DNA of 64,000 bases. Origin: a virus. The DNA is taken from the UHGV virus genome UHGV-1375844; one strand, written 5' to 3'. The notes beneath the pieces were generated by a model. That model made no database searches, was not told the DNA's origin, and was given only the letters and a program-made list of their open reading frames with translations. Positions 7,047-61,778 of the stretch are shown piece by piece. Numbering within the stretch: the stretch's first letter is position 1; each line of letters begins with the position of its first letter. The translations under genes and the position numbers were made by a program.

Positions 7047-7066
7047 ATAAGTAAGTCATTACTTAT
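7047..7066. repeat. Intergenic palindrome family (ATAAGTAAG-n-CTTACTTAT), copy
   Basis: ataagtaagtcattacttat between the PhoH start and the plus-strand moron. Confidence 0.6.
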
Positions 7067-7205
7067 TTATCGTGGCTTTGTGCTAGGTTAAAACAGCTTT
7101 GGGGAGCTGGTGCGCTTAAGGCCTTCCAGAAAACTCAAACTAGCTGAAATAGTAGGGTCAATTAGGTATCATTCCTTTTCAAATTTAACCAAAGACTCTT
7201 ATAAA

Positions 7206-8438
7206 ATGCCTGCTTTGTTAATTCTCATAATTGGGACATTGATGATTATTTTCTGGGATGTGATTAAGGAAAACGTAGAGGTTATAGGTACGCTTGCCAC
7301 TTCACTTGCCTTTTTTGCTACTGCCTGGGCTGCTTACGAGGCAAGGCATAGTGCAAAGGCGGCAATGAAGGCGACCCAGCTGACGGCTGATTCACTTCTT
7401 GAAATGAAAAAAGCCTCTTTTAAGGAGTGGTACGGCATTTTACTTGAACAGCATAATAAATTACTTGAGGATGTTAATAAGACCTTATTGGATGACAATG
7501 AACTTAATACCAGGTTGAATATTAATGTCATAAGAGGTATTTATTATCACGTAACCAAAAATCCTGCTTACATTAAGTATATTAATCACATAATTTTAAT
7601 CCTGAATTATGTAGATAAAGACTTTTATCTGCCGTCCTCGGCGGAAAATGAAAAGAGATCTTATATAGAACAGTTGCGCAACAGCATTAGCCCAAAAGTA
7701 AGCCTGCTGATTGCTATTTTTGGCCTTAATATCGACAATAATAAAACTTATGATGCAAAGAAACTTTACAACCTTCTAAGCAAATATAACTTTTTTGAAA
7801 ATGAGCTATTTTTTGAAGTTGCAATATCAAAAGTTCATTACTTAGACACTTATGTCGCCGAGATATTTGACAAAGAATACCGAAAAGACGTTGAATTTTA
7901 TGTTGATGAAACGGTTTGTGGTCGTGCGCTCTCTTTTATCAATACGACATGCCGACACCATAGGATTACTTTCGCAGTTCAGTGGTCTTACAACAACCCC
8001 TGCCAAAAGCATTTGCTGAAAAGATTCAATGACCTACCTATGCACATGAGAAACGTCATTGGGCTGAACATGGAAAAAGCAGCCGAGAAAGTGGCTACGT
8101 TTAATTCTGAGTTGCCTGGTTTTGTCGGCTGGGAAATTAAGATTGCTAATAATAAGGTGAGAGTAATTAAGGATGAAAAAGAACTGAAAAGGCTAATAAA
8201 GCTTTACTATAAATACCCCTTTGACCCTCGACAAACTGGTATCGTGTTAACCAATGGTTTCACCAATAGATTCGCCGATGAGATTAGGAATAGTATGTCT
8301 AGCTATGCTTTACATAAAGCCTATCTAGAACTCAGCTCTAATCCGAACAAAGATCAGGTAATTGATGAGATTGTGTCAGAGGTTGAAAAAATGGTCGATA
8401 AATTTAAAACAGAACTTAATTCTTTCTGCTTTAACTGA
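7206..8438 (+). CDS. Hypothetical membrane-anchored protein, AT-rich moron
   Basis: Only plus-strand gene in a minus-strand block; markedly AT-rich, K/N/I/Y-rich; N-terminal hydrophobic helix (PALLILIIGTLMIIFW); own terminator; ORF track begins at GTG 7110, first ATG at 7206, no clear SD. Confidence 0.55.
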   Translation: MPALLILIIGTLMIIFWDVIKENVEVIGTLATSLAFFATAWAAYEARHSAKAAMKATQLTADSLLEMKKASFKEWYGILLEQHNKLLEDVNKTLLDDNELNTRLNINVIRGIYYHVTKNPAYIKYINHIILILNYVDKDFYLPSSAENEKRSYIEQLRNSISPKVSLLIAIFGLNIDNNKTYDAKKLYNLLSKYNFFENELFFEVAISKVHYLDTYVAEIFDKEYRKDVEFYVDETVCGRALSFINTTCRHHRITFAVQWSYNNPCQKHLLKRFNDLPMHMRNVIGLNMEKAAEKVATFNSELPGFVGWEIKIANNKVRVIKDEKELKRLIKLYYKYPFDPRQTGIVLTNGFTNRFADEIRNSMSSYALHKAYLELSSNPNKDQVIDEIVSEVEKMVDKFKTELNSFCFN

Positions 8439-8446
8439 CTAAAAGA

Positions 8447-8474
8447 AAAGGGGCCGAAGCCCCTTTGGATTTTG
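8447..8474. terminator. Bidirectional rho-independent terminator
   Basis: ggggc-cgaa-gcccc hairpin flanked by an A-run (8441-8449) and a T-rich run (8464-8473); sits between convergent genes 7206..8438 (+) and 8639..9250 (-). Confidence 0.7.
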
Positions 8475-8638
8475 CGCTGAAAAAAGTCTAACTACGATGC
8501 TAAGAAGCACTATGGTTAAGAACGTCTGCCGTGTCTATCACAGCGTTGAACGGTCTGGGTGACGTTAGCGGAGTCATTTAGTGAATGGAATCCCAAACCG
8601 TTCAGCGATGTGCTGGCCTCCGCAGAGGCCAGTCGGTA

Positions 8639-9250
8639 TTACGATTTGCCGGCGTTAACTACCACGCCCTGGCGACGAGAGTCAGCTTCGGCAATCTTCA
8701 GTCGAGTTTCGCGTTCGGCCTTCAGCTCGCCCTGCAATTGGGCCACCTGCGACTCAAGGAACTCGATACGAGAGTCTTTCGCGGCGCTGGATGCGTTCAG
8801 TTCCGCCATTTCCACACGATGATCAGACTTCAGCTGGTTGACTTCCGCAGTAAATTTGCTGGCAGCTGCGCTATAGCCAGCTTCGCGAGCTGTGTTAACC
8901 GCCTCTTCGTTGTTGTCCAGCGCGTTTTCAAGATCGCGCTTAAGCTGAGTCAGCTCGACGTTGGAAATGCTGGCCAGACCGCGCTTCTTCATCAGATCCG
9001 CAAGTACGCCATCTTCGTTTTCGATTACCTTCAGACGCAGTTCCGCAGCCTTTTCTCGCTCTTTACTTGCGAACTGGCTATCCAGACCAGCCAGCTCAGC
9101 CTGGCGATATTCAATTTCTTCGGCCAACGTAACGCTGGTTTGTGAAAGGGTGTTCAGCTCGGTCGCAACCTTCGCCATATCACCGGCAGCTTTAACCATT
9201 GCTTTGGTGGAACGCTCAGTTAGGGAGATGACTTTCTTAACTTCGGACAT
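8639..9250 (-). CDS. Hypothetical coiled-coil protein
   Basis: 203 aa, heptad-rich (AELAGLDSQFASKEREKAAELRLK..., VAQLQGELKAERETRLK); immediately downstream of the tRNA cluster. Confidence 0.5.
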   Translation of the reverse strand: MSEVKKVISLTERSTKAMVKAAGDMAKVATELNTLSQTSVTLAEEIEYRQAELAGLDSQFASKEREKAAELRLKVIENEDGVLADLMKKRGLASISNVELTQLKRDLENALDNNEEAVNTAREAGYSAAASKFTAEVNQLKSDHRVEMAELNASSAAKDSRIEFLESQVAQLQGELKAERETRLKIAEADSRRQGVVVNAGKS

Positions 9251-9275
9251 GTGTTTTCCTTCGTCGCTTTTATAT

Positions 9276-9362
9276 TGGCGGAAGGTAATGGAATCGAACC
9301 ATCACCGCGCTCGCAGTGGGACGGTTTTCAAGACCGCTTGAGCACCATGCTCCCTACCTTCC
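9276..9362 (-). tRNA. tRNA-Ser: tRNA-Ser (anticodon UGA), class II with long variable arm
   Basis: Reverse complement gives GGAAGGT...GGTCTTGAAAACCG...GGTTCGATTCC...ACCTTCCGCCA; 7-bp acceptor stem, encoded CCA, anticodon loop CTTGAAA. Confidence 0.7.
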
Positions 9363-9604
9363 GTTATTTAGTGTGGTGGCCGGCGCTGATCTCCGGCATA
9401 ACAACCCGACTTAAATTCGCGACTTTAAATCGGTTCCTCCGTTTGTCCACTTTAGCCCGGAGTTAGCAACCTCAGTCACTCACCGATATGCCTATCGGTG
9501 GCGCGCATCAGCCTGCGCATTCACCACAACGGTGAGAGCACTCTTGGCGAACCTGTAGATTGGGCTATGATCCCGTTACAAGCGAATGCTCTTACCTGTT
9601 GTGT

Positions 9605-9737
9605 TGGTGCCGGTTAACGGACTCGAACCGTTGACCTCTGGCCTAACATCGGATCGTTGTCATTGACCAGCCATGCTGTCTACCGAAGTAGAAACGATGC
9701 TTTGGCTCTCGCGCTCTACCAACTGAGCTAAACCGGC
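9605..9737 (-). tRNA. tRNA-like element with a ~58-nt internal insertion (disrupted or intron-bearing tRNA)
   Basis: Reverse complement starts GCCGGTTTAGCTCAGTTGGTAGAGC (acceptor + D arm) and ends AACGGTTCGAGTCCGTTAACCGGCACCA (T arm + acceptor + CCA), but 79 nt separate the D arm from the T arm; the insert contains a UUCG-tetraloop hairpin (tctac-ttcg-gtaga). Confidence 0.35.
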
Positions 9738-9739
9738 AT

Positions 9740-9814
9740 TGGCGATGATGGGTGGATTCGAACCACCGACCAGTTGATTAACAGTCAACCGCTCTACCAC
9801 TGAGCTACACCATC
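9740..9814 (-). tRNA. tRNA-Asn: tRNA-Asn (anticodon GUU)
   Basis: Reverse complement GATGGTGTAGCTCAGTGGTAGAGCGGTTGACTGTTAATCAACTGGTCGGTGGTTCGAATCCACCCATCATCGCCA folds as a canonical cloverleaf; anticodon loop CTGTTAA. Confidence 0.8.
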
Positions 9815-9829: not shown

Positions 9830-10530
9830 CTGGCTTCAAAGATGAAGTTTTCCCGCAACTTGCACTTTGCGTTAGTGCCAGACGAGGCTTGCGGCTCGCT
9901 CAAATAGAGCGAAGATCTTAAACACTGCTCGGTGCTTCAGAGAGCGCCGGGGAGTCAGATCTTATTGGATGTATGGAATCATCCGTGTTGTGGCAGCTAC
10001 ATGCTAAAACCAGAGGGTATTACTATTGCCACAACGTTGAGGCCACTAAACCAGTAATGTTTGCCCAACATCTTTGTCAGTCGCTACAGCCTCTGTGGAT
10101 TCACCTGTATGATTGAAAGAAACAGTGGCCTCAACGTTGTGTGCTGGCTAACCAGGCCAGCCGGGTTACGTCGCCGATCTTCTTTAACCCAAGACAAAAC
10201 GACATAAGTAATGGAAATGACGTAACAGGATGAACGGTCGATAACTGAAACCGGGATAGGTGAATGGAATGAGGAAACCAACCGCCCATCCTGTTACTTC
10301 ATCGGAGAGGGCATGGGTGGTGCCGTATCATGCCCTCTCCTGCGTTCTGCAATCACACTCGCTCAGTGTGTCCCATTTCGGTGACGAGGCTGGAAACTGA
10401 CCTCGCTGGTGTTTGGCTTATTATGCTACTGCCAGATACTGATTGTCGTTTGCAGTTATCTTTAAACGTTCAAACAGTCGCGTACTAACGAAAACAAAGC
10501 AATCTTATACATATCATAAAAATAAGTAAA
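9830..10530. other. ORF-poor, highly structured non-coding region (candidate ncRNA or origin)
   Basis: Perfect 17-bp inverted repeat acaacgttgaggccact (10031-10047) / agtggcctcaacgttgt (10124-10140); perfect 12-bp-stem hairpin ggagagggcatg (10304-10315) / catgccctctcc (10329-10340); 11-bp inverted repeat gtaacaggatg / catcctgttac; no convincing ORF. Confidence 0.4.
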
Positions 10531-10537
10531 TACTTAT
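10521..10537. repeat. Intergenic palindrome family, copy
   Basis: aataagtaaatacttat. Confidence 0.5.
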
Positions 10538-10839
10538 CTATCGGTTATGCGTTCAGTTGATAACTTTTTGATCAGAGTCCCCTTCGAAGAGGGGGTTCGT
10601 GAGACAGTGGCGGTAAATCGCTTACCGTGGATAGTAATACTCTCGTGCTCCTTCAGTTCCCCATAGCGGATTTCCAATAGGGCGCCAAGACGCCATAGTC
10701 CATCATCGATACGCTTTTTACTGGCAAACTTTATCAGCAACCATTTCACAATAAATTGGCCTGCAGCGAATGCGCACGCAACGCCAGCTGCCGTAAAGTA
10801 GGCGACCAGCCACCAGTCGAGTGAGGTCAGTTCCGTCAT
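10534..10839 (-). CDS. Hypothetical membrane protein (101 aa)
   Basis: N-terminal hydrophobic helix (WWLVAYFTAAGVACAFAAGQFIV); start overlaps the stop of the upstream small ORF (ATGA). Confidence 0.5.
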   Translation of the reverse strand: MTELTSLDWWLVAYFTAAGVACAFAAGQFIVKWLLIKFASKKRIDDGLWRLGALLEIRYGELKEHESITIHGKRFTATVSRTPSSKGTLIKKLSTERITDR

Positions 10840-13184: not shown

Positions 13185-13202
13185 ATAACAAACCGTAGTC
13201 TT

Positions 13203-13220
13203 GTACTTACTTAATAAGTG
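13203..13220. repeat. Intergenic palindrome family, variant copy
   Basis: gtacttacttaataagtg. Confidence 0.35.
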
Positions 13221-14101: not shown

Positions 14102-14121
14102 ATAAGTAAGCATCTACTTAT
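14102..14121. repeat. Intergenic palindrome family, copy
   Basis: ataagtaagcatctacttat between primase and the 264-aa gene. Confidence 0.6.
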
Positions 14122-17544: not shown

Positions 17545-17563
17545 GTAGGTAGTTACTTACTTA
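17545..17563. repeat. Intergenic palindrome family, copy
   Basis: taggtagttacttacttat. Confidence 0.5.
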
Positions 17564-17649
17564 TCAAAGTGAGCGAATCATAACGACTGGAGACAGCTTT
17601 TGGAAGTGGCAACTGAAGGGAATGTGTCTGGGAAGCTCGTTGTGAAAAG

Positions 17650-17706
17650 ACCTGCTTCCGTATAAATAATAATAAGTAACTTAGTATTTATATACAGAAG
17701 CAGGTT
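17650..17706. repeat. Long palindrome A (CCTGCTTCCGTATA - AT-rich centre - TATACGGAAGCAGG family)
   Basis: acctgcttccgtata ... tatacagaagcaggt, 14 of 15 arm positions paired, ~27-nt AT-rich centre; second copy at 51708-51765. Confidence 0.6.
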
Positions 17707-22787: not shown

Positions 22788-22838
22788 GAAAAGTCAAATC
22801 GGGATGGCAGGGTTATAACACATTAGCAAACAATTTTG

Positions 22839-22857
22839 TAGGTAAGCACTTACTTAT
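22839..22857. repeat. Intergenic palindrome family, copy
   Basis: taggtaagcacttacttat. Confidence 0.6.
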
Positions 22858-23941: not shown

Positions 23942-23961
23942 ATAGGTAAGCACTTACCTAT
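23942..23961. repeat. Intergenic palindrome family, copy
   Basis: ataggtaagcacttacctat. Confidence 0.6.
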
Positions 23962-29917: not shown

Positions 29918-29937
29918 TTAAGTAAGTACCTACTTAT
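29918..29937. repeat. Intergenic palindrome family, copy
   Basis: ttaagtaagtacctacttat; adjacent 7-bp-stem hairpin gacgggc-atcctt-gcccgtc (29896-29916). Confidence 0.6.
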
Positions 29938-36361: not shown

Positions 36362-36387
36362 CCTGTCAGCGCCTACAAATAATAGTA

Positions 36388-36403
36388 AATAAGCACTTAC
36401 TTA
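36388..36403. repeat. Intergenic palindrome family, copy
   Basis: aaataagcacttacttat between the M-like and L-like genes. Confidence 0.55.
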
Positions 36404-36417
36404 TCCAGTAGGATAAA

Positions 36418-42905: not shown

Positions 42906-42925
42906 ATAAGTATATACTTACTTAT
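42906..42925. repeat. Intergenic palindrome family, copy
   Basis: ataagtatatacttacttat. Confidence 0.6.
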
Positions 42926-46233: not shown

Positions 46234-46253
46234 GTAGATAACTACTTACCTAC
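46234..46253. repeat. Intergenic palindrome family, copy
   Basis: gtagataactacttacctac. Confidence 0.5.
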
Positions 46254-48086: not shown

Positions 48087-49661
48087 TCACTCGGTCTCTT
48101 GAGTAGATGAGTCCCCATTCCCTCGGGGTTGATCTTGCCCGCTCTCTTGGGCTGCATCTCGATCATAAGTAAGTACTGACTTATTTTCAAGGGTGTTTAG
48201 ATCATTTTTTAGAGGAAATTTCAAGAGGTCTTTATCAAATTCCTTTTTCATCGCTTCGGAAATGTTAGGGAAGACTTTCTCGATAAGCATTTCCATCTGG
48301 TGCCGACGAACAGAATCTGGCGCCTGCAGCAATGCGAGTTTCTCAGCAACAGCAAATTCGTCAGTCAGCCCGCGAATATCGAAACTCTCCGGGTAAGCAA
48401 TTAAAGAGTGGTCTTCGTCCAGTTCGACACCCATCCACTTCGCGGCCAGCATCATCATTTGGCGCTCGGCTCTTTCGAGACGTTCAGCCTTTGTCACCAG
48501 CAGACTGTTAACTCTCTGGAAGTCGTACATTTTGGCTGCGCCTGATGAGTTATCGATACCCTGCGCGTTATCCTGCTTGGTTCGCTCTCCTGCAACACCA
48601 ACGGAGTGGTAGATCTCATTAATCACGGTCTTAATCGTGGTAATGATCATCTGCGCTTGTTTTGGGTCAGGCGAAAGGTAAAACGGCTGGTTCCCGCCCT
48701 CGGAATCGTAGGTGAAAACACGCTTCGTCCCCATCTCCAGCACCTTGTCGTGATTTTCATCGCCCGGCAGTAGAGACTGAACAGGGATAGCAAGCTGGCT
48801 AAATGTCTGATCCTGAATGATGGCGTCCAGGTTCGAGAGATAGTTAGCGACGGCCCGATCGAGATAGGCAATATCATCAATGAGTGACGGGCTGAAATAA
48901 GGTGATTCACTTTCCCCGATGCAATCTACCGGGAATACCGGTACCGCGCCCAACTTGTGCTCACCGTAGTCCTCCAGCACGACTTTTGCCTGCCTGCGAC
49001 CTGCGCCACCGGAACTCTTTTTCACCTCTTCACGGAAGAGATACCATTCATTTTGTGTCCATAGACGATAACGCTGGTATTCCTGACCAGTTGAGGTGAA
49101 AGGGTCCGTATCGTCACGCGCAATTTCTACGATCAGCGCCCACAGCATATTGCCATCTTCGTCCCAGGCCACATCAAGCAGCTGCTGCGGCGAAATCCAG
49201 TAGGCATAGGCTCGCGCCCCCTTCTGTTTCTCGTCAGCAACGGACTCAACGTCACCGTTCATTGTGCTATCGACCACAACCCAGATGCGGCCGTAAATAG
49301 ACGACTGAAGATCGATTGCCGCCATGAACGCATCAATGGAAGCATTCTGCCGTGTGGCTCGTTTCCAGAAATTGCGGATCTGCTCGGGCGCCTCTTCGAT
49401 ATTGCGATGAATATCCTCTTTGAAGAGATATTTGTTGATCAGGTTTACCACTTCGCGAGTGTGGTTAAAGCGATACGCTCGCTCAAGGCGCTCCTTGAAC
49501 TCCTGATCACCCTCTTTGAAGTAACGAAAGATATTTTCGCTGAACCAGGCTCGCCCGCCAGCGTAAGTGCTGGCGAGAAAATCCCAATGTTCTTTTTTCT
49601 TCTCATATTCGGGGTGGCGCCGGGCCACCAGATCTTTGATTTGCTTATCAGTCAATTCCAT
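48087..49661 (-). CDS. Portal protein
   Basis: 524 aa directly downstream of the large terminase; AGGAG RBS; a palindrome copy (48165-48184) lies inside its 3' end. Confidence 0.7.
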   Translation of the reverse strand: MELTDKQIKDLVARRHPEYEKKKEHWDFLASTYAGGRAWFSENIFRYFKEGDQEFKERLERAYRFNHTREVVNLINKYLFKEDIHRNIEEAPEQIRNFWKRATRQNASIDAFMAAIDLQSSIYGRIWVVVDSTMNGDVESVADEKQKGARAYAYWISPQQLLDVAWDEDGNMLWALIVEIARDDTDPFTSTGQEYQRYRLWTQNEWYLFREEVKKSSGGAGRRQAKVVLEDYGEHKLGAVPVFPVDCIGESESPYFSPSLIDDIAYLDRAVANYLSNLDAIIQDQTFSQLAIPVQSLLPGDENHDKVLEMGTKRVFTYDSEGGNQPFYLSPDPKQAQMIITTIKTVINEIYHSVGVAGERTKQDNAQGIDNSSGAAKMYDFQRVNSLLVTKAERLERAERQMMMLAAKWMGVELDEDHSLIAYPESFDIRGLTDEFAVAEKLALLQAPDSVRRHQMEMLIEKVFPNISEAMKKEFDKDLLKFPLKNDLNTLENKSVLTYDRDAAQESGQDQPRGNGDSSTQETE

Positions 49662-49677: not shown

Positions 49678-49697
49678 ATAGGTAAGCACTTACTTAT
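49678..49697. repeat. Intergenic palindrome family, copy
   Basis: ataggtaagcacttacttat between terL and portal. Confidence 0.6.
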
Positions 49698-51682: not shown

Positions 51683-51707
51683 TTTATCAAAACTTGAGAG
51701 TTGCAGA

Positions 51708-51765
51708 ACCTGCTTCCGTATATAATTAATAAGTGACTTAATATTTATTTATACGGAAGCAGGCT
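51708..51765. repeat. Long palindrome B (same family as 17650-17706)
   Basis: cctgcttccgtatata - AT-rich centre - tatacggaagcagg, perfect arms. Confidence 0.65.
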
Positions 51766-51788
51766 CCACATCTGACTCCCAGACCTGC

Positions 51789-52055
51789 TTACATCACCAG
51801 TAACTTGGCCCTTGCTCGACCCAATGCAGTCAGCCCCAGCGTGCGGCGGTGATAGCCTGAATCCCCGCGCTGCCGACACATTCCCTTCTCCACCAGCCCC
51901 TTTTTCACCAGTGCGCGGATAGAGAACTGCATACTCTGCTTGGTCGTTTTGTACGGCAGGACTTCAAGCAGCTCGTCCAGATCAAGCAGATTCCCTCGCT
52001 CGTGCCCTAAATTGATGGTTTTAATGATGTCTTTCTGTTTGTCGGTCAAAGTCAT
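51789..52055 (-). CDS. Putative winged-helix DNA-binding protein (88 aa)
   Basis: Basic C-terminal half; last gene of the ParB-ATPase-GNAT operon. Confidence 0.4.
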   Translation of the reverse strand: MTLTDKQKDIIKTINLGHERGNLLDLDELLEVLPYKTTKQSMQFSIRALVKKGLVEKGMCRQRGDSGYHRRTLGLTALGRARAKLLVM

Positions 52056-52064
52056 GGCAAATCC

Positions 52065-54511: not shown

Positions 54512-55209
54512 TACATACGCTCCTTGTAGTAGTCGACCAGCCACACCAGGGCTTCCCCGGCGTTCTCCATTTCGTTACCGGTGTTGATCCCCTGCTCTTT
54601 GATGATGGTTTTGATGGTGTCGGCGACGCGATCTGACGCATCAAACGTCACTTTGAAGCGCATCGTCTGGTGTTCTGCGCCAACACGCTCCGTTTTCTCG
54701 CGGCGATCGTCGTCAGCTGGCTCATCATCGCCGCGGGAAAGCGCTTCCAGCGCTTCGAGATCAATGGCAGAGGCTTTGGCAAGGGTGGCCGCCATTTCAT
54801 CGTCATAGGGGGCAATATCGGAAAGCCGGTAGTCGATTTCAGACTGGATTTCTTCGATCAGTCGCTGCAAAGCGATCTGATCGTCTTCGCCGTAACGTTC
54901 GTTATCGACAAGTGACATCTGCTTGGCCACCAGGTCGTTGATTTTGCCAACCGAGATGACAGGAACAGTCGAAATTCCCTGCTCTATCGCAGCCCGCCAG
55001 CGATGTTCGCCGCCGAGGATCTGGAAAGTGCCACCGTCCAGCTCACGGGCCAAAATTGGCTTAAAAAAGCCCAGCTTCTCGATAGAACCTTTCAGTTTTT
55101 CGAAGTTTTGCGCCCCCACCGAGTTGGTGTTCCAGGGATTCGGACACAGTTTCGCAACTTCAACCTGCAAAATCGTAATTTTCACATCCATTTTCTTGAT
55201 ACAATCCAT
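54511..55209 (-). CDS. ParB/Srx-like N-terminal domain protein 1
   Basis: FQILGGEHRWRAAIEQG ParB-box-like motif; acidic C-terminus; palindrome copy immediately upstream of the ATG in place of a classical SD. Confidence 0.6.
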   Translation of the reverse strand: MDCIKKMDVKITILQVEVAKLCPNPWNTNSVGAQNFEKLKGSIEKLGFFKPILARELDGGTFQILGGEHRWRAAIEQGISTVPVISVGKINDLVAKQMSLVDNERYGEDDQIALQRLIEEIQSEIDYRLSDIAPYDDEMAATLAKASAIDLEALEALSRGDDEPADDDRREKTERVGAEHQTMRFKVTFDASDRVADTIKTIIKEQGINTGNEMENAGEALVWLVDYYKERM

Positions 55210-55212
55210 TGT

Positions 55213-55229
55213 ATAAGTACTTACTTATT
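55213..55229. repeat. Intergenic palindrome family, copy, in the divergent region between the ParB operon and the helicase
   Basis: tataagtacttacttat. Confidence 0.6.
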
Positions 55230-55273
55230 ATAATAGCCAATTAACACACAAAAGGCACGAAGGAAAGAGGTTT

Positions 55274-56833: not shown

Positions 56834-56835
56834 TA

Positions 56836-57114
56836 ATGAGCGATAAACGCGCTATACATTGCCAGGTGCAACTGACCGAGAAGGCCAACGACAAGCTGGA
56901 AAACTTTCAAAATCGTCTTCGTGAACGCAACATTAAGTTGTCAAAGGCAGACATCATCAATCTGGTGCTGGCCAACATGACAGTTGCCGATTTTGATAAG
57001 GCAGCGACATCTCTGGAGGCGTCAGCGAAAGCTCGTGAAAAAGTCATGAAAATTTACGAGAACTCGGGGATGACCAAAGAAGATTTGGCCGATATTCTAA
57101 AACGTCTCGACTGA
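56836..57114 (+). CDS. Hypothetical small protein (92 aa)
   Basis: ORF track; followed by terminator hairpin atggcgcc-ttta-ggcgccat + GTTTT (57121-57145). Confidence 0.45.
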   Translation: MSDKRAIHCQVQLTEKANDKLENFQNRLRERNIKLSKADIINLVLANMTVADFDKAATSLEASAKAREKVMKIYENSGMTKEDLADILKRLD

Positions 57115-57120
57115 ATCAAG

Positions 57121-57145
57121 ATGGCGCCTTTAGGCGCCATGTTTT
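57121..57145 (+). terminator. Rho-independent terminator
   Basis: Perfect 8-bp stem, 4-nt loop, T-rich tail. Confidence 0.6.
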
Positions 57146-57176
57146 AATGAACTGATAAGGACTTTGTTCAGGTACG

Positions 57177-57599
57177 ATGAAATACGTAATAATTCCACTA
57201 ATCACCACCTCTGCTTTACTTCTTTCCGCATGTCAGTCCCGTCCTGTTTCTGTTTCTGATGCAAAACCCGCGCCGCAGGCCAGAGTATTCAAATATCAGA
57301 CTCCAGAAGCCTCCACCCTGGTGGTCTTACGTGATAAAGGCATGGTCGGCTCTGGATGTGACGCTTCCATCTTCATCAATGGGGAAACCGTCGCAAAACT
57401 GGAGACAGGTGAAAAAGCCACTTTCCATCTTGCAGCTGGAGAATGGATCGTCGGAGCCTCGCTTGAAGGTTCCGGACTGTGCGCACTTAACCCGGCACGA
57501 CAGGAGCGTGAAACAATTACCAAAGCCGGTGACACGAAAGTGTTCAGGGTGTTTACCAGCAATGCTGGTGACATAGATATTCTTCCAACGACGCTGTAA
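57177..57599 (+). CDS. Lipoprotein (140 aa)
   Basis: Signal peptide and lipobox (IIPLITTSALLLSAC). Confidence 0.55.
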   Translation: MKYVIIPLITTSALLLSACQSRPVSVSDAKPAPQARVFKYQTPEASTLVVLRDKGMVGSGCDASIFINGETVAKLETGEKATFHLAAGEWIVGASLEGSGLCALNPARQERETITKAGDTKVFRVFTSNAGDIDILPTTL

Positions 57600-57603
57600 T
57601 GAC

Positions 57604-58131
57604 ATGACGAACATAACTGACATCACCTACGGTATACCTGCAGAAGTCTGGCCGCGGGATTATTCTAACGTCGAGAAGGCACTCATGTTCTGGCGTAAAT
57701 CCCTCATTCCTGTAAGGGTCACGATGGAGGATGGTCAGGTGTTCTGCATGTATGTGCAGGGTCTCATGTCATCCCGCAATAAGGTTGATCTTTGCTCTGC
57801 CCCGTTCGACAAAGAAAATCGTATAAGGCTCCCACTTGAGCGGATCAGCACGATTGAGTCGGGTGTGACAGAAAGTATTGGACACGACTTCAAGGGGCGA
57901 ATCACGATTAACCCCGAATATGTTGATAATCGGCCATCTCGCCGGGACTTCTTCAAAATCTGTCGGCAGGCTCATGCGTCTCAGAAGTCTATAAGGGTGT
58001 ACATGGCGGATGGCCGTGAAATTGAAGGTGTGTCATTAGGCGTTGACGCTTGCCAGGTCACGATCGGCATTGGTGAAGGTCGCAAGATGGTGGTCTTGTT
58101 CGATTGGGTCGAAAGGATTATACCGTTTTAA
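57604..58131 (+). CDS. Hypothetical protein (175 aa)
   Basis: ORF track; 4 nt after the lipoprotein gene. Confidence 0.45.
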   Translation: MTNITDITYGIPAEVWPRDYSNVEKALMFWRKSLIPVRVTMEDGQVFCMYVQGLMSSRNKVDLCSAPFDKENRIRLPLERISTIESGVTESIGHDFKGRITINPEYVDNRPSRRDFFKICRQAHASQKSIRVYMADGREIEGVSLGVDACQVTIGIGEGRKMVVLFDWVERIIPF

Positions 58132-58452
58132 ATCTATAAGGGTAATAACCGGCTAAGTCCGGTTATTATTTTATGGGTCACTTCTTCACTATATATTCCT
58201 TACAGCCAATTCCCGCCAATAATATATAAGGGCAATCTCACAATTGCGTTATTTATTTAGGGAACACCTTCAAGAAAAACGGATTTATTTCTAAGACTTT
58301 GATTTTTATTGAATAAAATTTTTTCCTGCTACCTTACAAAAAATACTTGCTTTTAAAATTCATATAGCGATAATTACACACATCGAAAGCGAACACGCTA
58401 ACGATAAATAAAAAACAAATTAATTTTCAATATTACATAAGGATTAAATATT

Positions 58453-59100
58453 ATGTCTAACGTTATCTCTAAAAAAGCTATCATCGACGCTGCTGTAGTT
58501 ATCACTGAAGAGCTTCAGATCAAAGCAAATGAAGCAAGCCAGACACGCGAACAACGCGCTAAAAATGGAACTGCTACCAAAGCAGATAAAGCTAACGAGC
58601 TTGCAGCCACTACTAAACTTGCATACTTCACTAACAACGTATTAAACGCGCTTAAAGATGAAAAATTAGCTGGTGTCTTTTACTACGCGATTAAAGCCAG
58701 CAAGCAAGATCCAGAAGTATTTTTCCGTGAAGCGATGACTAATAGCTACTCTCTCGAAAAGCTGGTTTATCTGGTGAAGTCTATTAAGTCTGGCAAATGT
58801 GTTTATTCAGTCGCTGATATGTCAGGATCTCGCGTATTCGCATTAATCGAAATGATTAATGATGAAATGGAAACTTTTACTAATGGCGCTGTATTCGATT
58901 TAATGAATGAAGCTAAAAAAGCATGTGAGATTAAATTAGACGCTGGCTACACTCAAGCCAATCAGCTTATCAATTTGTGTGAACGTCTGGGACTGGTCGA
59001 GAAGATCAAAGGAATGGGCGCTGCTAAAAACGGATCTCAGCAATATCGCTTTATCAAGAATGATTTTTATAACTATCTGGCTGAAGCGTTCAAAGCGTAA
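58453..59100 (+). CDS. Hypothetical protein (215 aa), AT-rich moron-like gene
   Basis: Preceded by a ~300-bp very AT-rich promoter-like region (58140-58450); followed by a strong terminator. Confidence 0.5.
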   Translation: MSNVISKKAIIDAAVVITEELQIKANEASQTREQRAKNGTATKADKANELAATTKLAYFTNNVLNALKDEKLAGVFYYAIKASKQDPEVFFREAMTNSYSLEKLVYLVKSIKSGKCVYSVADMSGSRVFALIEMINDEMETFTNGAVFDLMNEAKKACEIKLDAGYTQANQLINLCERLGLVEKIKGMGAAKNGSQQYRFIKNDFYNYLAEAFKA

Positions 59101-59112
59101 TTAGATGGATAT

Positions 59113-59138
59113 AGCGCCCACTATGGGCGCTAGTTTTA
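59113..59138 (+). terminator. Rho-independent terminator (agcgccca-ctat-gggcgct + T-run)
   Basis: Hairpin followed by agtttt. Confidence 0.6.
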
Positions 59139-59150
59139 AGGATAAAAATC

Positions 59151-59354
59151 ATGACAAGCTATGACCAGATCCTCGCGGAGTATCGCGCAAAATATCGCGC
59201 TTATAAACTTGAATTAATCGACGATCTAAAAGCGCAACGCGATAAACTAAATTTTACTTTTGCTGATTTGCTTAACAGTAAAAGAGACTGTAAACGCAAG
59301 CGTGAATATTTGCGCTTGTCTGAAATGATCGGAAAACTGCAAAACAGCATTTAA
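59151..59354 (+). CDS. Hypothetical small basic protein (67 aa)
   Basis: ORF track; AGGA RBS; flanked by two near-identical terminator hairpins. Confidence 0.45.
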   Translation: MTSYDQILAEYRAKYRAYKLELIDDLKAQRDKLNFTFADLLNSKRDCKRKREYLRLSEMIGKLQNSI

Positions 59355-59356
59355 AC

Positions 59357-59430
59357 AAAAGCGCCCACTATGGGCGCTTTTTTCGTTTCAGGATCTCCAC
59401 CATAACGCGCCAACAATGGCGCGTTTTCTT
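59357..59430 (+). terminator. Tandem rho-independent terminators
   Basis: aaagcgccca-ctat-gggcgcttttttcg (59357-59382) and aacgcgcc-aacaat-ggcgcgttttctttt (59404-59430). Confidence 0.65.
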
Positions 59431-59859
59431 TTGTCTGGCGTTCACTCATTCACAACAAAAATAAGCTCCATAAAAACGCCACTGCGACGCGTTTTAACGT
59501 GTGGCAATACGTACCCATAGCTAAAACAAAAAAGCGCTCAGAATGCGAGGTGTGGCGTTTTAGTGTATGGCTTATTTTATGCTGTCGTGGGCGTGATCGT
59601 CTGGCGTTATCTGGCGACGTGATCCGCGCCATCCTTCGGGACGTGTCGGCAATAATGGCGTGATCCGTGGGCGCTCGCGTATAGTCTCCACGTTGGCGCA
59701 ACGTGTACGCGCTTACAGTCTCGTTTATTCAGTGATTCATAATCACATAGCGAAAGCTATCCGGATGGCTCAGGGGCTGAAAAGCCCACCAGCACCACCC
59801 CAGCGCCTCTGTGCATTTTCTGGTGTGATTCTGAGCGTCTCCCGCTCGGTTTCTACATA

Positions 59860-59990
59860 GAGGCAAACCCAGCCGTTTCCCGAAAATTCCCTGGCCGTTT
59901 CCCTACGGCTGCCCGAATCGCTCTCTGGCCGTTCCTGAAGTTTTCCCCTGCGGCAGCGGGCGTCCAAAAAGAAAGGGCCGTTTCCAGCCC
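59860..59990. repeat. Iteron-like array 1 (GCCGTTTCC motif, 4 copies)
   Basis: cagccgtttccc, ggccgtttccct, ggccgttcctg (variant), gggccgtttccag at irregular 25-40-bp spacing. Confidence 0.55.
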
Positions 59991-59998
59991 CTCCCCTC

Positions 59999-60481
59999 TC
60001 ACACGCCAGGCAGGATATGAATGCGGTTGCTGACATACATCTCTTTCACGAAGTCCCCGCATGTGACTTTCCATTCACTGACACCGGCTTCATAAACCAC
60101 GTTTTTGCATTTAAGTGCATTGTCAGCGATACGCACACCCTGCGCTGTTGCTTCCTGGTCGGTGAAGTCGAACCCGGATTCAGTTTTGACCCACACGGCA
60201 ATTTGTGTTGCCAGCTCGATGAGTTTTGACTGGCAGAAGCGACCGCGTCGTACCGGGAAGATAAATACCCCGAACCCCGCGGTGGTAACGTAGGCTTTTT
60301 CGAATACGCGTTTATGTCGACGGTTACAGATAATGTTGCTGGCGATCTGCTGCTTCTCTTTCCCTGACAACTCAATGGTCTCATTGCCACGCCAGGCGCC
60401 CAGCACGCTTTTTTCAATGTCAGAGTAAGTCACGGAGATCGTGCCATGCTCGGGAGTGTTCACAGTAGCGATATAGTTCAT
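59999..60481 (-). CDS. Hypothetical early protein (160 aa)
   Basis: ORF track; own promoter-proximal motif upstream. Confidence 0.5.
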   Translation of the reverse strand: MNYIATVNTPEHGTISVTYSDIEKSVLGAWRGNETIELSGKEKQQIASNIICNRRHKRVFEKAYVTTAGFGVFIFPVRRGRFCQSKLIELATQIAVWVKTESGFDFTDQEATAQGVRIADNALKCKNVVYEAGVSEWKVTCGDFVKEMYVSNRIHILPGV

Positions 60482-60517: not shown

Positions 60518-60704
60518 TTTAATTATCGCTACGCGTATCAGGCGTCCAAGCGCTCTATTCCGGCATCTGTTTGCCTGAAGGGAGTCAGAGGGTCGTTCGG
60601 TAGCCTGGCGGTAAGAGGTGGGTGTTTTGCCTGATGTGATGAGGTTGGTATATCTGGCGGGCAAGCGGTGCTATCTTGGCCGCAGGTAACTCAGGAGACT
60701 CAAG

Positions 60705-60893
60705 ATGTTAGATAAACTGGATAATCTGCAATTAAGCGAAGAAGAGGCAACGGCTCTGGCCCAGCTCGTCAAACGACTCACCTGGACTGATATGCGAGGC
60801 TGTGCCGTTGACGATGATGAGGCGTATACCATCAGTGATGCGGTCGCCAAATTGCAGAAGAGTCTCGCTGAAGCAGGCTTCGCTCCGCGATAG
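60705..60893 (+). CDS. Hypothetical small protein (62 aa)
   Basis: ORF track; AGGAG RBS. Confidence 0.35.
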   Translation: MLDKLDNLQLSEEEATALAQLVKRLTWTDMRGCAVDDDEAYTISDAVAKLQKSLAEAGFAPR

Positions 60894-60920
60894 GCCACCA
60901 GCAAGGGTGGCCCCGTTCTC

Positions 60921-61202
60921 TTAGTGGAGCAGACCGACGTCGATGGTGTCGCCGGAGTCTGTGATGCGGATCATCAGCATGGCGAAGGCATTTAACGGAT
61001 AGCCTGCGTGCCACTCCGGGAAACGATCGTCTCGCATGAAATCGGCAATGTCATACACGCTGTCCTGAAAACGGAAGAAGCGGGTGGCGCTCTGCTCGTC
61101 GTATTCAACATGATCCATCTCCTGCTGTTCTGCCGGCGACAGGTCCAGCCAGGACTCCAGGTAAACATTTTCAGCTTTAGGGGTAATTGTAAAATCGGTC
61201 AT
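60921..61202 (-). CDS. Hypothetical early acidic protein (93 aa)
   Basis: ORF track; own promoter-proximal motif. Confidence 0.45.
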   Translation of the reverse strand: MTDFTITPKAENVYLESWLDLSPAEQQEMDHVEYDEQSATRFFRFQDSVYDIADFMRDDRFPEWHAGYPLNAFAMLMIRITDSGDTIDVGLLH

Positions 61203-61220
61203 GTGCTTAATCCTCAGTGC

Positions 61221-61244
61221 GTAAACAATTTGTTTTCTTGTTGG
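61221..61244 (-). promoter_or_regulatory. Conserved promoter-proximal near-palindrome, copy 7
   Basis: gtaaacaatttgttttcttgttgg followed by taattatcgc (GATAAT on the minus strand). Confidence 0.5.
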
Positions 61245-61329
61245 TGTAATTATCGCAGTGTGAATAAGGCAGAAAACATTTTGTTATCGGGGGCAAGTAA
61301 GTGGCGCGGGATTCGCGCCACTGGCGGGA

Positions 61330-61722
61330 TTAGGCGAACACGCTTTCAGGGATGTAATCATCAATGAGTGCGCCGGAGTTAATGCGCAAACCGTACTGAC
61401 CCATCCAGGTGCTGTTAGGGTTAAGATCTGAGGTGAACAGCGCGTTCACTTTCGTCATAAGCGATTCGAACATCGTACTATCGACGGTGCGGAAGTAGGC
61501 TTCCAGTTTGAGCAGTAGCGGATCTGATGCGTCGCTAATGTTCTGGTAGCCAATGGCGTATGTGCTCTTATCAGTACCCTTACGCACTAAGGTGCTGGTA
61601 TGTACCTCAGTTCCGGTGGTGTTATCACGCACAACAACGGTCAGTTTGGCAGTGGCTTCGCCGGAGGTGGTCTCAGATGCATAATGCAGATCGAGTACCA
61701 GATTTTCACGTAAAACAGTCAT
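61330..61722 (-). CDS. Hypothetical early protein (130 aa)
   Basis: ORF track. Confidence 0.45.
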   Translation of the reverse strand: MTVLRENLVLDLHYASETTSGEATAKLTVVVRDNTTGTEVHTSTLVRKGTDKSTYAIGYQNISDASDPLLLKLEAYFRTVDSTMFESLMTKVNALFTSDLNPNSTWMGQYGLRINSGALIDDYIPESVFA

Positions 61723-61762
61723 TATCTTCTCCCTGTGTTAGACCCCTTTTATATTATTGTCA

Positions 61763-61778
61763 TAAGTAACTACTTACA
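61763..61778. repeat. Intergenic palindrome family, copy
   Basis: ataagtaactacttac. Confidence 0.45.

What the first reader, a model, noticed from the sequence alone, without database searches (positions are those of the whole stretch)
7047..61778. Genome-wide family of ~20-bp intergenic palindromes (consensus ATAAGTAAG-n-CTTACTTAT), at least 16 copies
Near-identical palindromes occur at gene junctions across the early, replication, lysis and structural modules: 7047, 10521, 13203, 14102, 17545, 22839, 23942, 29918, 36388, 42906, 46234, 48165, 49678, 55213 and 61763, with a weaker variant at 2771. The arms are conserved while the central 2-6 nt vary, which fits an RNA or ssDNA hairpin better than a rigid dimeric protein site. 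Several copies sit immediately upstream of start codons, in one case replacing a Shine-Dalgarno sequence (55213). I am not aware of an element of this exact form having been characterised. They may be RNA processing or stability elements, translational coupling elements, or operator sites for a phage regulator.
Basis: seen in the sequence. Interest (0 to 1): 0.65.

Follow-up and report, generated by a model that had tools for sequence, protein, structure and literature searches.

The report
Dispersed 20-bp operator of phage-plasmid
A 20-bp DNA palindrome repeated about 30 times between the genes of an SSU5-like phage-plasmid is real and family-specific, and it looks like the docking site of a phage-encoded repressor that keeps the lytic genes silent, not like an RNA hairpin.

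Summary
The window is 99.7% identical to Salmonella plasmid pSA20094620.2, an SSU5-like phage-plasmid. It holds 14 copies within 4 mismatches of ATAAGTAAGT|ACTTACTTAT, against 0.005 in shuffles. The whole plasmid has about 28 copies, and 26 of 27 are intergenic.

- The element has a fixed 20-bp length; half-site spacers are only 0, 4 or 8.
- It folds weakly (-4 to -10 kcal/mol).
- Pairing equals the shuffled control (82.9% vs 82.9%).
- G·U and A·C mismatches are equally frequent on both strands.

It therefore behaves as two independent half-sites on double-stranded DNA. The outer arms ATARGTA/TACYTAT persist from Salmonella to Xenorhabdus and Morganella relatives; the inner bases are clade-specific.

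Several copies overlap core promoter elements in different registers, for example TTGAAA-[motif]-TATGAT inside the portal gene. In the published Cyrano lysogen RNA-seq, such near-consensus promoters are silent.

The best candidate binder is the XRE-family repressor (2815-3195). It is expressed in lysogens and core to about 860 related plasmids. It is missing from the SSU5 virion isolate, and the motif's inner 14 bp lie at +1 of its own promoter. Binding is inferred, not shown.

Verdict: a new variant of dispersed repressor operators (P1 C1 / L5 stoperator type), of moderate interest.

The parts
2768..2787 (.). Partial operator ATCAGTAAGCACTTACCAGA at the promoter of the XRE repressor gene. It is the inner 14 bp of the motif and covers about -2 to +18 of the promoter.
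   Evidence: The core GGTAAG(C/T)ACTTACC is conserved in window, Cyrano and a Klebsiella plasmid although the flanks diverge.
2742..2769 (+). Sigma-70-like promoter TTTACA-16-TAATAT of the XRE gene. Its last two bases are motif positions 1-2.
   Evidence: consensus scan; conserved in three lineages.
2815..3195 (+). XRE-family HTH protein (126 aa), next to a site-specific integrase. Best candidate for the protein that binds the motif.
   Evidence: PHROG transcriptional regulator. Present in ~860 SSU5-like plasmids with the same host distribution as the structural genes. Absent from phage SSU5. The Cyrano orthologue is expressed at 10x background in lysogens.
7047..7066 (.). Motif copy ATAAGTAAGTCATTACTTAT (2 mismatches), upstream of the PhoH-like operon in a divergent intergenic region.
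10522..10541 (.). Motif copy ATAAGTAAATACTTATCTAT (3 mismatches), overlapping the stop codon of ORF 10534-10839(-).
13195..13214 (.). Degenerate copy with only the right half-site ACTTACTTAA, in the intergenic region between two hypothetical genes.
14102..14121 (.). Motif copy (3 mismatches) between the primase gene and ORF 13266-14060(-). An extended -10-like TGTAAGAAT lies 6 nt downstream.
   Evidence: At the Cyrano orthologous junction RNA steps up +2.4 log2.
17545..17564 (.). Motif copy (4 mismatches), 13 nt upstream of ORF 16806-17531(-), downstream of the ParA-like operon.
   Evidence: Cyrano RNA drops about 9-fold across this junction.
17650..17705 (.). ~56-bp super-palindrome ACCTGCTTC(C/T)GTAT...ATACGGAAGCAGGT with a motif-like core (TAAGTTACTTA). 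A related but distinct element.
   Evidence: RNA fold -23.6 kcal/mol, z -7.2.
22838..22857 (.). Motif copy GTAGGTAAGCACTTACTTAT (3 mismatches), 62 nt upstream of the holin gene.
23942..23961 (.). Motif copy ATAGGTAAGCACTTACCTAT (3 mismatches to the consensus; both arms carry the G/C variant, so the arms still match each other).
29918..29937 (.). Motif copy (2 mismatches) between the tail J-like gene and the tail fibre gene. A GC-rich hairpin follows it.
36385..36404 (.). Motif copy (3 mismatches) between the minor tail genes M and L. A GC-rich hairpin follows it.
42906..42925 (.). Motif copy (2 mismatches) upstream of the major tail (Ig-domain) gene. It overlaps the promoter-like TTGAAT-18-TATACT at 42938-42909(-).
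   Evidence: At the Cyrano orthologous junction RNA steps up +2.5 log2.
46234..46253 (.). Weak copy (6 mismatches) after the major capsid gene. A terminator-like hairpin at 46227-46211(-) follows it directly.
   Evidence: Cyrano RNA drops 2.96 log2 across this junction.
48162..48190 (-). Best sigma-70-like promoter in window 40001-60000: TTGAAA-17-TATGAT. The motif copy at 48165-48184 (1 mismatch) forms the spacer and part of the -10. It is embedded in the portal ORF, 99 nt upstream of the scaffold-like and capsid genes.
   Evidence: 10/12 match. Conserved in all clades, with clade-specific inner bases. Silent in the Cyrano LB lysogen.
49678..49697 (.). Motif copy (2 mismatches) overlapping the stop codon of the terminase large-subunit gene, 16 nt upstream of the portal ATG.
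51705..51767 (.). Second super-palindrome (core TAAGTCACTTA), between the winged-helix gene and the TerS-like gene.
   Evidence: -31.3 kcal/mol, z -7.4.
51789..52055 (-). 88-aa MarR/PadR-like winged-helix protein. Alternative candidate binder or activator.
   Evidence: The recognition helix is invariant in all clades. The Cyrano orthologue is not expressed in the lysogen.
55209..55228 (.). Degenerate copy (one 4-bp unit missing) in the 64-bp divergent control region. It lies between the ParB-like/late operon (ATG at 55209, - strand) and the UvsW-like helicase operon (+ strand). TATAAT hexamers abut it on both strands.
   Evidence: the copy is present at this position in all clades.
61762..61781 (.). 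Weak copy (5 mismatches), preceded in the direction of transcription by an intrinsic terminator.
1321..1340 (.). Weak match (6 mismatches) inside the CobT-like gene. Possibly chance or a decayed copy.

Best explanation
The element is a 20-bp dyad-symmetric operator on double-stranded DNA. It is bound by a dimer of a regulator encoded by the phage-plasmid.

The regulator is most likely the prophage repressor, and the XRE-family HTH protein at 2815-3195 is the best candidate. About 30 copies sit along the long one-directional array of lytic genes (replication, nucleotide metabolism, lysis, head, tail).

At many sites the operator overlaps core elements of sigma-70 promoters: the spacer plus -10, the -10 itself, the +1 region, or the -35. 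A bound repressor would therefore occlude RNA polymerase. At sites squeezed between a stop codon and the next start codon it may act only as a roadblock to read-through from genes expressed in the plasmid state.

A weaker partial site at +1 of the repressor's own promoter would give negative autoregulation.

Shown:
- the motif, its rigidity and its lack of hairpin signature;
- its overlap with promoter-like hexamers;
- its family-wide conservation;
- expression of the XRE gene, and silence of the lytic genes, in a related lysogen.

Inferred:
- that a protein binds the motif;
- that the protein is XRE;
- that binding represses transcription.
For: 1. It behaves as a dsDNA dimer site.
- Fixed length, with half-site spacers only 0, 4 or 8.
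- Pairing equals the shuffled control, 82.9% vs 82.9%.
- G·U and A·C mismatches are equally frequent on both strands, 63 vs 56.
- The arm sequence ATARGTA/TACYTAT is conserved from Salmonella to Xenorhabdus, Morganella and Moellerella.

2. It belongs to this phage family.
- All 39 loci with the exact consensus among 2.9 million viral contigs are SSU5-like.

3. It overlaps promoters in variable registers.
- TTGAAA-17-TATGAT at 48190-48162, with the motif as spacer.
- The same architecture, TTGAAA-[motif]-TATCAT, directly after a terminator at plasmid 4640 and Cyrano 57446.
- The -10 lies inside the motif at 42906 and at Cyrano 59399.
- The -10 ends at motif position 2 at the XRE promoter and at the late-operon promoter.

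4. Published RNA-seq of the Cyrano lysogen (PMC9928086, supplementary file 2).
- These near-consensus promoters are at background in LB.
- RNA steps up exactly at motif junctions after 6 h in macrophages, a condition I read as partial derepression: +3.6, +3.65, +2.5 and +2.4 log2.
- RNA falls 9-fold and 4-fold across motif sites downstream of expressed plasmid-state genes.

5. Evidence for XRE as the binder.
- It is the only DNA-binding candidate expressed in the lysogen: 95.8 against a background of 9.8. The winged-helix protein (7.8), the ParB-like proteins (5.0 and 9.5) and CYRAN_37 (6.4) are at background.
- It is present with the same host distribution as the structural genes in ~860 plasmids.
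- It is absent from the SSU5 virion isolate, which lacks ~7.4 kb here.
- Its promoter carries the motif's inner 14 bp at +1 in three lineages.
- Its recognition helix differs in the clade whose motif has different inner bases: NNLSLIKSGK against NNLSNIKTGR in pCP102.
Against: - No binding data exist.
- Most copies lack a recognisable -35. The sense-strand -35 score is only weakly above background (p=0.03). Many sites are therefore not obviously promoters.
- Across all Cyrano gene junctions, motif-bearing ones show no systematic step up or down (p=0.85).
- The gene downstream of one good copy (CYRAN_34) is expressed at 4.5x background in the lysogen.
- The helicase operon, whose -10 abuts the degenerate copy at 55209, is also expressed in the lysogen.
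- In pCP102 and Moellerella the XRE promoter does not carry the core at +1. A motif copy lies further upstream instead.
- The covariation between the XRE helix and the motif rests on three clades, and any diverging protein would show some.
- SSU5 keeps about 20 intact copies without the XRE gene.
Confidence: 0.55

Rival explanations
1. The palindrome is the binding site of a phage-encoded activator that replaces the -35 element. All lytic promoters would then depend on one activator, as P1 late promoters depend on Lpa. The 88-aa MarR-like winged-helix protein encoded just upstream of the terminase genes would be the activator.
For: - Annotated P1 late promoters are AAGTKACTT-N4-TAnnnT. The motif is built from the same AAGT/ACTT half-sites.
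- About half the copies are followed by a -10-like TATNNT starting at motif position 18.
- Most copies lack a -35.
- The winged-helix gene sits directly upstream of TerS, as lpa sits upstream of pacA.
- Its fold is MarR/PadR-like. Its recognition helix is invariant, as are the motif arms.
- It is silent in the lysogen and rises after 6 h in macrophages.
Against: - The distance between the palindrome and the -10-like hexamers is not fixed. An activator that contacts RNA polymerase needs fixed geometry.
- The -10-like hexamer is equally frequent on the antisense side, 15 against 14. It is therefore part of the symmetric site.
- Some copies lie in near-consensus promoters that need no activator yet are silent in lysogens.
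- The motif precedes early and late genes alike.
- A partial site sits at +1 of the repressor promoter.
- No Lpa homologue was found.
Confidence: 0.2
2. The element acts as an RNA (or single-stranded DNA) hairpin. Possible roles are a processing or stability signal, a translational coupling element, or a weak terminator.
For: - It is palindromic, and it sits close after stop codons: median 17 nt after the stop, 49 nt before the next start.
- A few copies fold better than shuffles, z -2 to -3.5.
- T-rich tracts follow some copies on the + strand.
Against: - No covariation beyond shuffles.
- No G·U preference over A·C on either strand.
- Low stability, -4 to -5 kcal/mol for most copies.
- The arm sequence is conserved, not just the pairing.
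- Several copies lie directly downstream of intrinsic terminators, where little upstream RNA would reach them.
- No T-run follows the motif in the direction of transcription.
- No Rfam family matches.
Confidence: 0.04
3. The palindromes are loading or binding sites for the two ParB-N-domain proteins (53843-55209). These would act like KorB of plasmid RK2 or like parS/ParB, in silencing or in DNA organisation.
For: - Two ParB_N proteins are conserved in all clades.
- One motif copy abuts the start codon of the first ParB-like gene.
- From my own knowledge: ParB-family proteins bind palindromes, and KorB has 12 dispersed operators.
Against: - The ParB-like genes are at background in the Cyrano lysogen, 5.0 and 9.5 against 9.8. 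They cannot maintain silencing there.
- The first ParB-like protein diverges to 44-50% identity while the arms stay unchanged.
- The motif does not resemble known parS or OB sites (own knowledge).
Confidence: 0.07
4. The motif is recognised by a conserved host protein of Enterobacterales, such as a nucleoid or global regulator. From memory, the arms fit the NarL heptamer TACYYMT, and the centre GTAAGTACTTAC resembles the SlmA site GTGAGTACTCAC.
For: - The arms are invariant across phage lineages that infect different genera.
- The resemblances to host-factor sites are recalled from memory and were not tested.
Against: - The inner bases are clade-specific and evolve in concert within each phage lineage.
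- The arrangement and spacing differ from NarL 7-2-7 sites.
- The SlmA-like centre is not conserved in types B and C.
- The exact consensus occurs only in SSU5-like contigs.
Confidence: 0.05

Closest known systems
Dispersed C1 repressor operators of phage-plasmid P1
   Same: - Both belong to a plasmid prophage.
- One repressor has many operators scattered over a ~100-kb genome.
- The operators overlap sigma-70 promoters in various registers.
- The annotated P1 record shows Oref, Omat, Ossb, Oc4, OrepL and Olpa.
   Different: - P1 operators are 17-bp asymmetric sites (ATTGCTCTAATAAATTT, own knowledge) that control early genes and lpa. Late genes use a separate activator.
- Here the site is a 20-bp perfect dyad.
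- It is found before early, lysis, head and tail genes alike.
- The candidate repressor is an XRE-type HTH protein, not a C1 homologue.
Stoperators of mycobacteriophage L5 (repressor gp71; Brown et al. 1997, from own knowledge)
   Same: - About 24-30 repressor sites lie in short intergenic spaces throughout both early and late regions of a prophage.
- They are proposed to silence the whole genome and to stop read-through.
- Two expression drops across motif sites in Cyrano fit this.
   Different: - L5 sites are 13-bp, asymmetric and orientation-dependent.
- The present sites are symmetric, and several clearly overlap promoter hexamers.
- A block to elongation was not tested here.
P1 late promoters with the Lpa '-22 box'
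   Same: - Same half-site letters (AAGT/ACTT).
- A palindrome lies close upstream of a -10-like hexamer.
- There are many copies across structural genes.
   Different: - The P1 box is 9 bp (AAGTKACTT), lies at a fixed 4-nt distance from the -10, and occurs at late genes only.
- Here the element is 20 bp with spacers 0/4/8, in variable register, before early and late genes.
- No Lpa homologue was found.
Arc/Mnt operators of phage P22 and other operators placed between -35 and -10
   Same: A dyad operator occupies the promoter spacer. I also recall some sequence resemblance to the Arc operator ATAGTAGAGTGCTTCTATCAT (from memory, untested).
   Different: - P22 has single sites in one immunity region, bound by ribbon-helix-helix proteins.
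- No such protein was identified here.

Membership tests
RNA/ssDNA hairpin element (REP-like, processing site, stabiliser) | Base pairing maintained by compensatory or G·U changes | tested here: not met
   82.9% of cells paired, against 82.9% in shuffles; covariation score 0.137 vs 0.139. G·U 63 vs A·C 56.
RNA/ssDNA hairpin element (REP-like, processing site, stabiliser) | Thermodynamically stable stem relative to shuffled sequence | tested here: inconclusive
   the consensus folds at -4.9 kcal/mol; copies fold at -4 to -10; z-scores run from -0.6 to -3.5.
Intrinsic terminator | GC-rich stem followed by a T-run in the direction of transcription | tested here: not met
   the stem is AT-rich and no T-run follows on the sense strand. 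Separate GC-rich hairpins lie beside some copies.
P1 Lpa-type late promoter | 9-bp box AAGTNACTT at a fixed 4-nt distance from a TAnnnT -10 | tested here: not met
   the spacer-1 arrangement occurs only inside the super-palindromes. The 20-bp motif uses spacers 0/4/8, and its register to -10-like hexamers varies.
P1 Lpa-type late promoter | An Lpa homologue is encoded by the element | tested here: not met
   tblastn of P1 Lpa finds nothing below E=0.9. BLASTP against the 88-aa protein gives E=8.3. Only P1 Lpa itself hits PHROG 1704.
P1 Lpa-type late promoter | Restricted to late (morphogenesis and lysis) operons | tested here: not met
   copies also precede nrdA, thyA, dam, RNase H, primase, SSB-like and recombinase genes.
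Dispersed prophage-repressor operator (P1 C1 / lambda type) | Conserved dsDNA site overlapping core promoter elements | tested here: met
   for at least six sites. Many other sites have no recognisable promoter.
Dispersed prophage-repressor operator (P1 C1 / lambda type) | A repressor made in the lysogen, with a site at its own promoter | tested here: inconclusive
   The XRE orthologue is at 10x background in the Cyrano lysogen. The motif core lies at +1 of its promoter in type-A lineages, but not in pCP102 or Moellerella.
Dispersed prophage-repressor operator (P1 C1 / lambda type) | Direct, sequence-specific binding and repression | not testable with these tools
   Needs EMSA or footprinting, ChIP, and reporter assays.
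L5-type stoperator | Asymmetric site whose orientation follows the direction of transcription | tested here: not met
   The site is a dyad. Its flanks are near-symmetric too (A at -3, T at +23).
L5-type stoperator | Sites in short intergenic spaces throughout early and late regions, absent from prophage-expressed regions | tested here: met
   There are no copies in Cyrano 85-105 kb, where the lysogen-expressed accessory genes lie.
L5-type stoperator | Blocks elongating RNA polymerase | not testable with these tools
   The only hints are the expression drops 30->31 and 64->65. The first junction also holds a -24 kcal/mol super-palindrome.
ParB/KorB-type site | Cognate ParB-family protein present and expressed in the plasmid state | tested here: not met
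   The genes are present but at background in the lysogen.

The most novel reading that the evidence does not exclude
SSU5-like phage-plasmids include S. Typhi pHCM2-type, Y. pestis pMT1-type and resistance-carrying Klebsiella and E. coli elements. In this reading they have no classical early/late cascade. Instead, each of about 30 lytic transcription units carries its own sigma-70 promoter or junction, gated by one dyad operator of a single XRE-type repressor. This would be a Gram-negative, symmetric counterpart of mycobacteriophage 'stoperator' silencing, and the same protein may activate or spare a few promoters (CYRAN_34, the helicase operon). The operator even evolves inside the portal coding sequence, in step with the repressor's specificity.
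Probability: 0.3. Interest if true: 0.65.

Novelty: new variant of a known kind. Interest (0 to 1): 0.5.

Why it matters
SSU5-like phage-plasmids are very common in clinical Enterobacterales: 824 PLSDB plasmids match this structural region. I found no published account of how they control lysis versus lysogeny, although the search was limited.

A single, easily recognised operator would help in three ways:
- It gives a direct handle on that switch, because it names the likely repressor, its regulon and its autoregulatory site.
- It lets transcription units be predicted in hundreds of related plasmids.
- It offers a portable set of about 30 natural operator variants with graded match to the consensus, for quantitative studies.

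It also warns against reading intergenic palindromes as hairpins without a covariation test.

Tried and rejected
- **Exact-consensus search with a variable gap:** no match. This led to the realignment as a fixed 20-mer.
- **Hairpin hypothesis:** rejected by the covariation, G·U/A·C and energy tests.
- **Terminator hypothesis:** no sense-strand T-run.
- **General sigma-70 promoter model with -10 at motif positions 18-23.**
  - The hexamer is equally present on both sides.
  - The -35 is only weakly enriched (p=0.03).
  - It therefore does not describe all copies.
- **FljA-like protein (57604-58131, Pfam PF03614) as binder.**
  - I considered it because FljA binds a 5'-UTR hairpin.
  - I rejected it because it is absent from Xenorhabdus, Morganella and Moellerella relatives that keep the motif.
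- **P1 Lpa homology:** none detected.
- **Homologue search for the winged-helix protein:** only SSU5-like contigs are returned and no Pfam domain is found. No out-group co-occurrence test was possible.
- **More distant relatives:** a portal-based scan of 185,579 genomes found none beyond Xenorhabdus and Morganella.
- **Sequence match of XRE to solved structures:** nothing.
- **Global test of RNA-seq steps at motif junctions:** no overall effect; only individual junctions are informative.
- **Literature:** searches for the motif sequence and for SSU5 regulation found no prior description. One 2026 preprint could not be opened.

Full report
**What the window is.** The window is 99.7% identical to Salmonella enterica plasmid pSA20094620.2 (NZ_CP030187.1, 106,569 bp, IncFIB). 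It is about 82% identical to Salmonella phage SSU5. It is therefore an SSU5-like phage-plasmid. Nearly all genes lie on the - strand. They include tail, head, lysis and replication genes and T4-like recombination genes (annotation of SSU5 and Cyrano).

**Check of the observation.**
- Every listed coordinate carries the motif, give or take 1-4 nt.
- Realigned, the copies form a fixed 20-bp palindrome, ATAAGTAAGT|ACTTACTTAT. A/G is allowed at position 4 and T/C at position 17.
- The window has 10 hits at <=3 mismatches, 14 at <=4 and 18 at <=5. The means in 200 dinucleotide shuffles are 0, 0.005 and 0.09.
- At <=4 mismatches the whole plasmid has 28 copies and SSU5 has 18. A looser scan that allows the position-4/17 variants finds about 21 in Cyrano.
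- 26 of 27 copies are intergenic in a genome that is 86% coding (p~1e-21).
- The strongest columns are TA steps every 4 bp (T2A3, T6, T10A11, T14A15, T18A19), plus G5 and C16.
- TARGT...ACYTA pairs occur only with spacers 0, 4 or 8.
- 13203 is only a half-site. 46234, 61762 and 2768 are weak. 48165 lies inside the portal ORF.

**Hairpin or double-stranded site?**
- On 27 paralogous copies, an 8-bp stem is 82.9% paired, exactly as in column shuffles. The covariation score is 0.137 against 0.139.
- Over 70 copies in three genomes, non-Watson-Crick cells split evenly. There are 63 G·U pairs on the mRNA strand and 56 A·C pairs, which would be G·U on the other strand.
- Sense and antisense folding energies do not differ: -4.10 vs -4.03 kcal/mol.
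- The perfect consensus folds at only -4.9 kcal/mol. Individual copies fold at -4 to -10, with z-scores of -0.6 to -3.5.
- No Rfam family matches.
- The pairing is thus fully explained by each arm matching its own consensus. This is what two half-sites of a dimeric DNA-binding protein would give.

**Conservation across the family.**
- The outer arms ATARGTA-N6-TACYTAT are kept in E. coli (Cyrano), Klebsiella, Enterobacter and Y. pestis elements. They are also kept in Xenorhabdus, Morganella and Moellerella relatives whose portal is only 68-79% identical.
- The inner bases are clade-specific and shared by the paralogues within a genome:
  - type A, ..GTAAGT|ACTTAC.. (window, SSU5, Cyrano);
  - type B, ..GTAGCT|AACTAC.. 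(pCP102 and the L053 clade);
  - type C, right half ..AATACYTAT (Morganellaceae).
- The copy embedded in the portal C-terminus changes its inner bases, and with them the encoded residues, along with the clade. It keeps TTGAAA/TTGATA upstream and TATGAT downstream.
- The exact consensus occurs in 39 loci among 2.9 million viral contigs. All 39 are SSU5-like.

**Relation to genes and promoters.**
- In the direction of transcription, copies lie a median 17 nt after the upstream stop codon (range down to -8, that is, overlapping it). They lie a median 49 nt before the next start codon.
- Some copies directly follow an intrinsic terminator (plasmid 4640 and 76051 = window 61762). Others are followed by a GC-rich hairpin (window 46234, 29918, 36385, 42906).
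- Several copies overlap promoter hexamers, in different registers:
  - The best sigma-70-like site in window 40001-60000 is TTGAAA-17-TATGAT at 48190-48162. The motif forms the spacer and part of the -10.
  - Plasmid 4640 and Cyrano 57446 are TTGAAA-[motif]-TATCAT, immediately after a terminator.
  - At 42906 and at Cyrano 59399 the -10 lies inside the motif.
  - At the XRE promoter (TTTACA-16-TAATAT, 2742-2769) and at the late-operon promoter (TATAAT at 55232-55227, - strand) the -10 ends at motif position 2. The site then covers +1.
- A -10-like TATNNT starting at motif position 18 is present in about half the copies. It is equally frequent in both orientations, 15 vs 14. It therefore belongs to the symmetric site.
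- -35 hexamers are only weakly enriched (p=0.03).
- A variable register fits a repressor operator. It does not fit an activator that must contact RNA polymerase from a fixed position.

**Experimental data from a relative.** The supplementary RNA-seq table for the E. coli LF82 phage-plasmid Cyrano (PMC9928086) gives the following.
- In LB lysogens nearly all lytic genes are at background (median 9.8). This includes those behind the near-consensus motif promoters.
- The XRE gene CYRAN_45 reads 95.8.
- The winged-helix protein (7.8), both ParB-like proteins (5.0 and 9.5) and the 71-aa regulator (6.4) are at background.
- Expression falls from 50-89 (ParA operon) to 6.2 across the super-palindrome plus motif junction. 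It falls from 31.5 to 7.5 across another motif.
- After 6 h in macrophages, which I read as partial derepression, RNA steps up at motif junctions:
  - 59->60, +3.65 log2;
  - 55->56, +3.6;
  - 11->12, +2.5;
  - 33->34, +2.4;
  - 3->4->5, +1.2 then +1.6.
- Over all junctions there is no systematic effect (p=0.85). These data support individual promoters, not a uniform role.

**Who binds?**
- The FljA-like protein (57604-58131, PF03614) is excluded. It is missing in type-C relatives that keep the motif.
- No Lpa homologue exists.
- The XRE-family protein at 2815-3195 is the best candidate:
  - It is expressed in lysogens.
  - It occurs in ~860 plasmids with the same genus counts as the structural region.
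  - It is missing from the SSU5 virion isolate. SSU5 has only ~165 bp where the window has ~7.4 kb, from 2229 to 9739.
  - Its promoter carries GGTAAG(C/T)ACTTACC, the motif's inner 14 bp, at +1 in window, Cyrano and a Klebsiella plasmid, despite 65-67% protein identity.
  - Its recognition helix is NNLSLIKSGK in type A. It is NNLSNIKTGR in type-B pCP102 and NNISMIKSGK in type-C Moellerella.
- The 88-aa protein at 51789-52055 is a confident MarR/PadR-like winged helix (pLDDT 84; Foldseek E~3e-4). Its recognition helix is invariant. It remains the candidate for the activator rival.

**Comparison with known systems.**
- The closest concepts are the dispersed C1 operators of P1 and the stoperators of mycobacteriophage L5 (own knowledge).
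- P1 late promoters (AAGTKACTT-N4-TAnnnT) share half-site letters with the motif. They differ in geometry, in gene class and in having Lpa.
- I found no description of this motif.

**Verdict.** The hairpin interpretation is not supported. The most likely function is a dispersed operator of the prophage repressor (confidence 0.55 for repression; about 0.8 that it is a dsDNA site for a phage-encoded dimer). It is a new variant of a known kind, of moderate interest (0.5).

Noticed in passing
window 17650-17705 and 51705-51767 (third copy at plasmid NZ_CP030187 89570-89627, outside the window): A separate family of ~56-bp 'super-palindromes': ACCTGCTTCCGTATA..AT-rich core..TATACGGAAGCAGGT. They fold at -24 to -31 kcal/mol (z about -7). 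Their cores contain AAGTTACTT or AAGTCACTT, identical to the P1 late-promoter -22 box. One sits between the winged-helix gene and TerS; another sits at the end of the ParA-like operon, where Cyrano RNA drops 9-fold. They could be terminators, processing sites or cruciforms.
   Followed up: partly
window 57604-58131 (+): A full-length FljA homologue (Pfam Flag1_repress, E 2.7e-89), the repressor of phase-1 flagellin. It lies in the helicase operon. It is present in Salmonella, E. coli and Yersinia-type elements and absent in Xenorhabdus and Morganella relatives. It is probably a lysogenic-conversion gene that shuts off host flagellin.
   Followed up: partly
window ~2229-9739: Phage SSU5 (the virion isolate) lacks this ~7.4-kb segment: the XRE repressor, the integrase, the homologue of CYRAN_43, glutaredoxin and PhoH. 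SSU5 may be a repressor-less lytic derivative of a plasmid prophage.
   Followed up: partly
window 4560-5183 (-): This is the likely counterpart, by conserved gene order, of Cyrano CYRAN_43. That gene is by far the most highly expressed gene of the lysogen (7084 against a background of 9.8 in PMC9928086, supplementary file 2). tblastn of the window protein found no hit in Cyrano. Its function is unknown.
   Followed up: no
window 48087-48200 (portal C-terminus): A regulatory site and promoter are embedded in coding sequence. The residues encoded by the motif's inner bases (KSVL / SLST / RYVN) change between clades together with the clade's operator type. The flanking L-E/D-N and T-Y-D codons, which form the -35 and -10, stay fixed.
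   Followed up: partly
window 9276-9814 (-): tRNA-Ser(tga) and tRNA-Asn(gtt) genes. The segment is ~88% identical to the tRNA cluster of P1-like phages P7 and D6. Rfam also reports a 130-nt tRNA match at 9608-9737 that ARAGORN does not call.
   Followed up: no
window 40001-60000: Sigma-70 consensus matches are depleted in the structural region: 8 found against 17.4 +/- 4.3 in shuffles. The single best one is the motif-containing site.
   Followed up: no
window 55196-55274: A 64-bp divergent control region with overlapping back-to-back TATAAT hexamers. The ParB-like gene starts at the edge of the motif with no Shine-Dalgarno sequence, so its mRNA may be leaderless. In type-C relatives a GGAAAG Shine-Dalgarno sequence is present there instead.
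   Followed up: partly
plasmids of Acinetobacter baumannii (~110 kb; e.g. NZ_CP087333.1): 154 Acinetobacter plasmids encode a distant homologue (35-37% identity) of the XRE protein. I did not check whether they carry an analogous dispersed palindrome.
   Followed up: no
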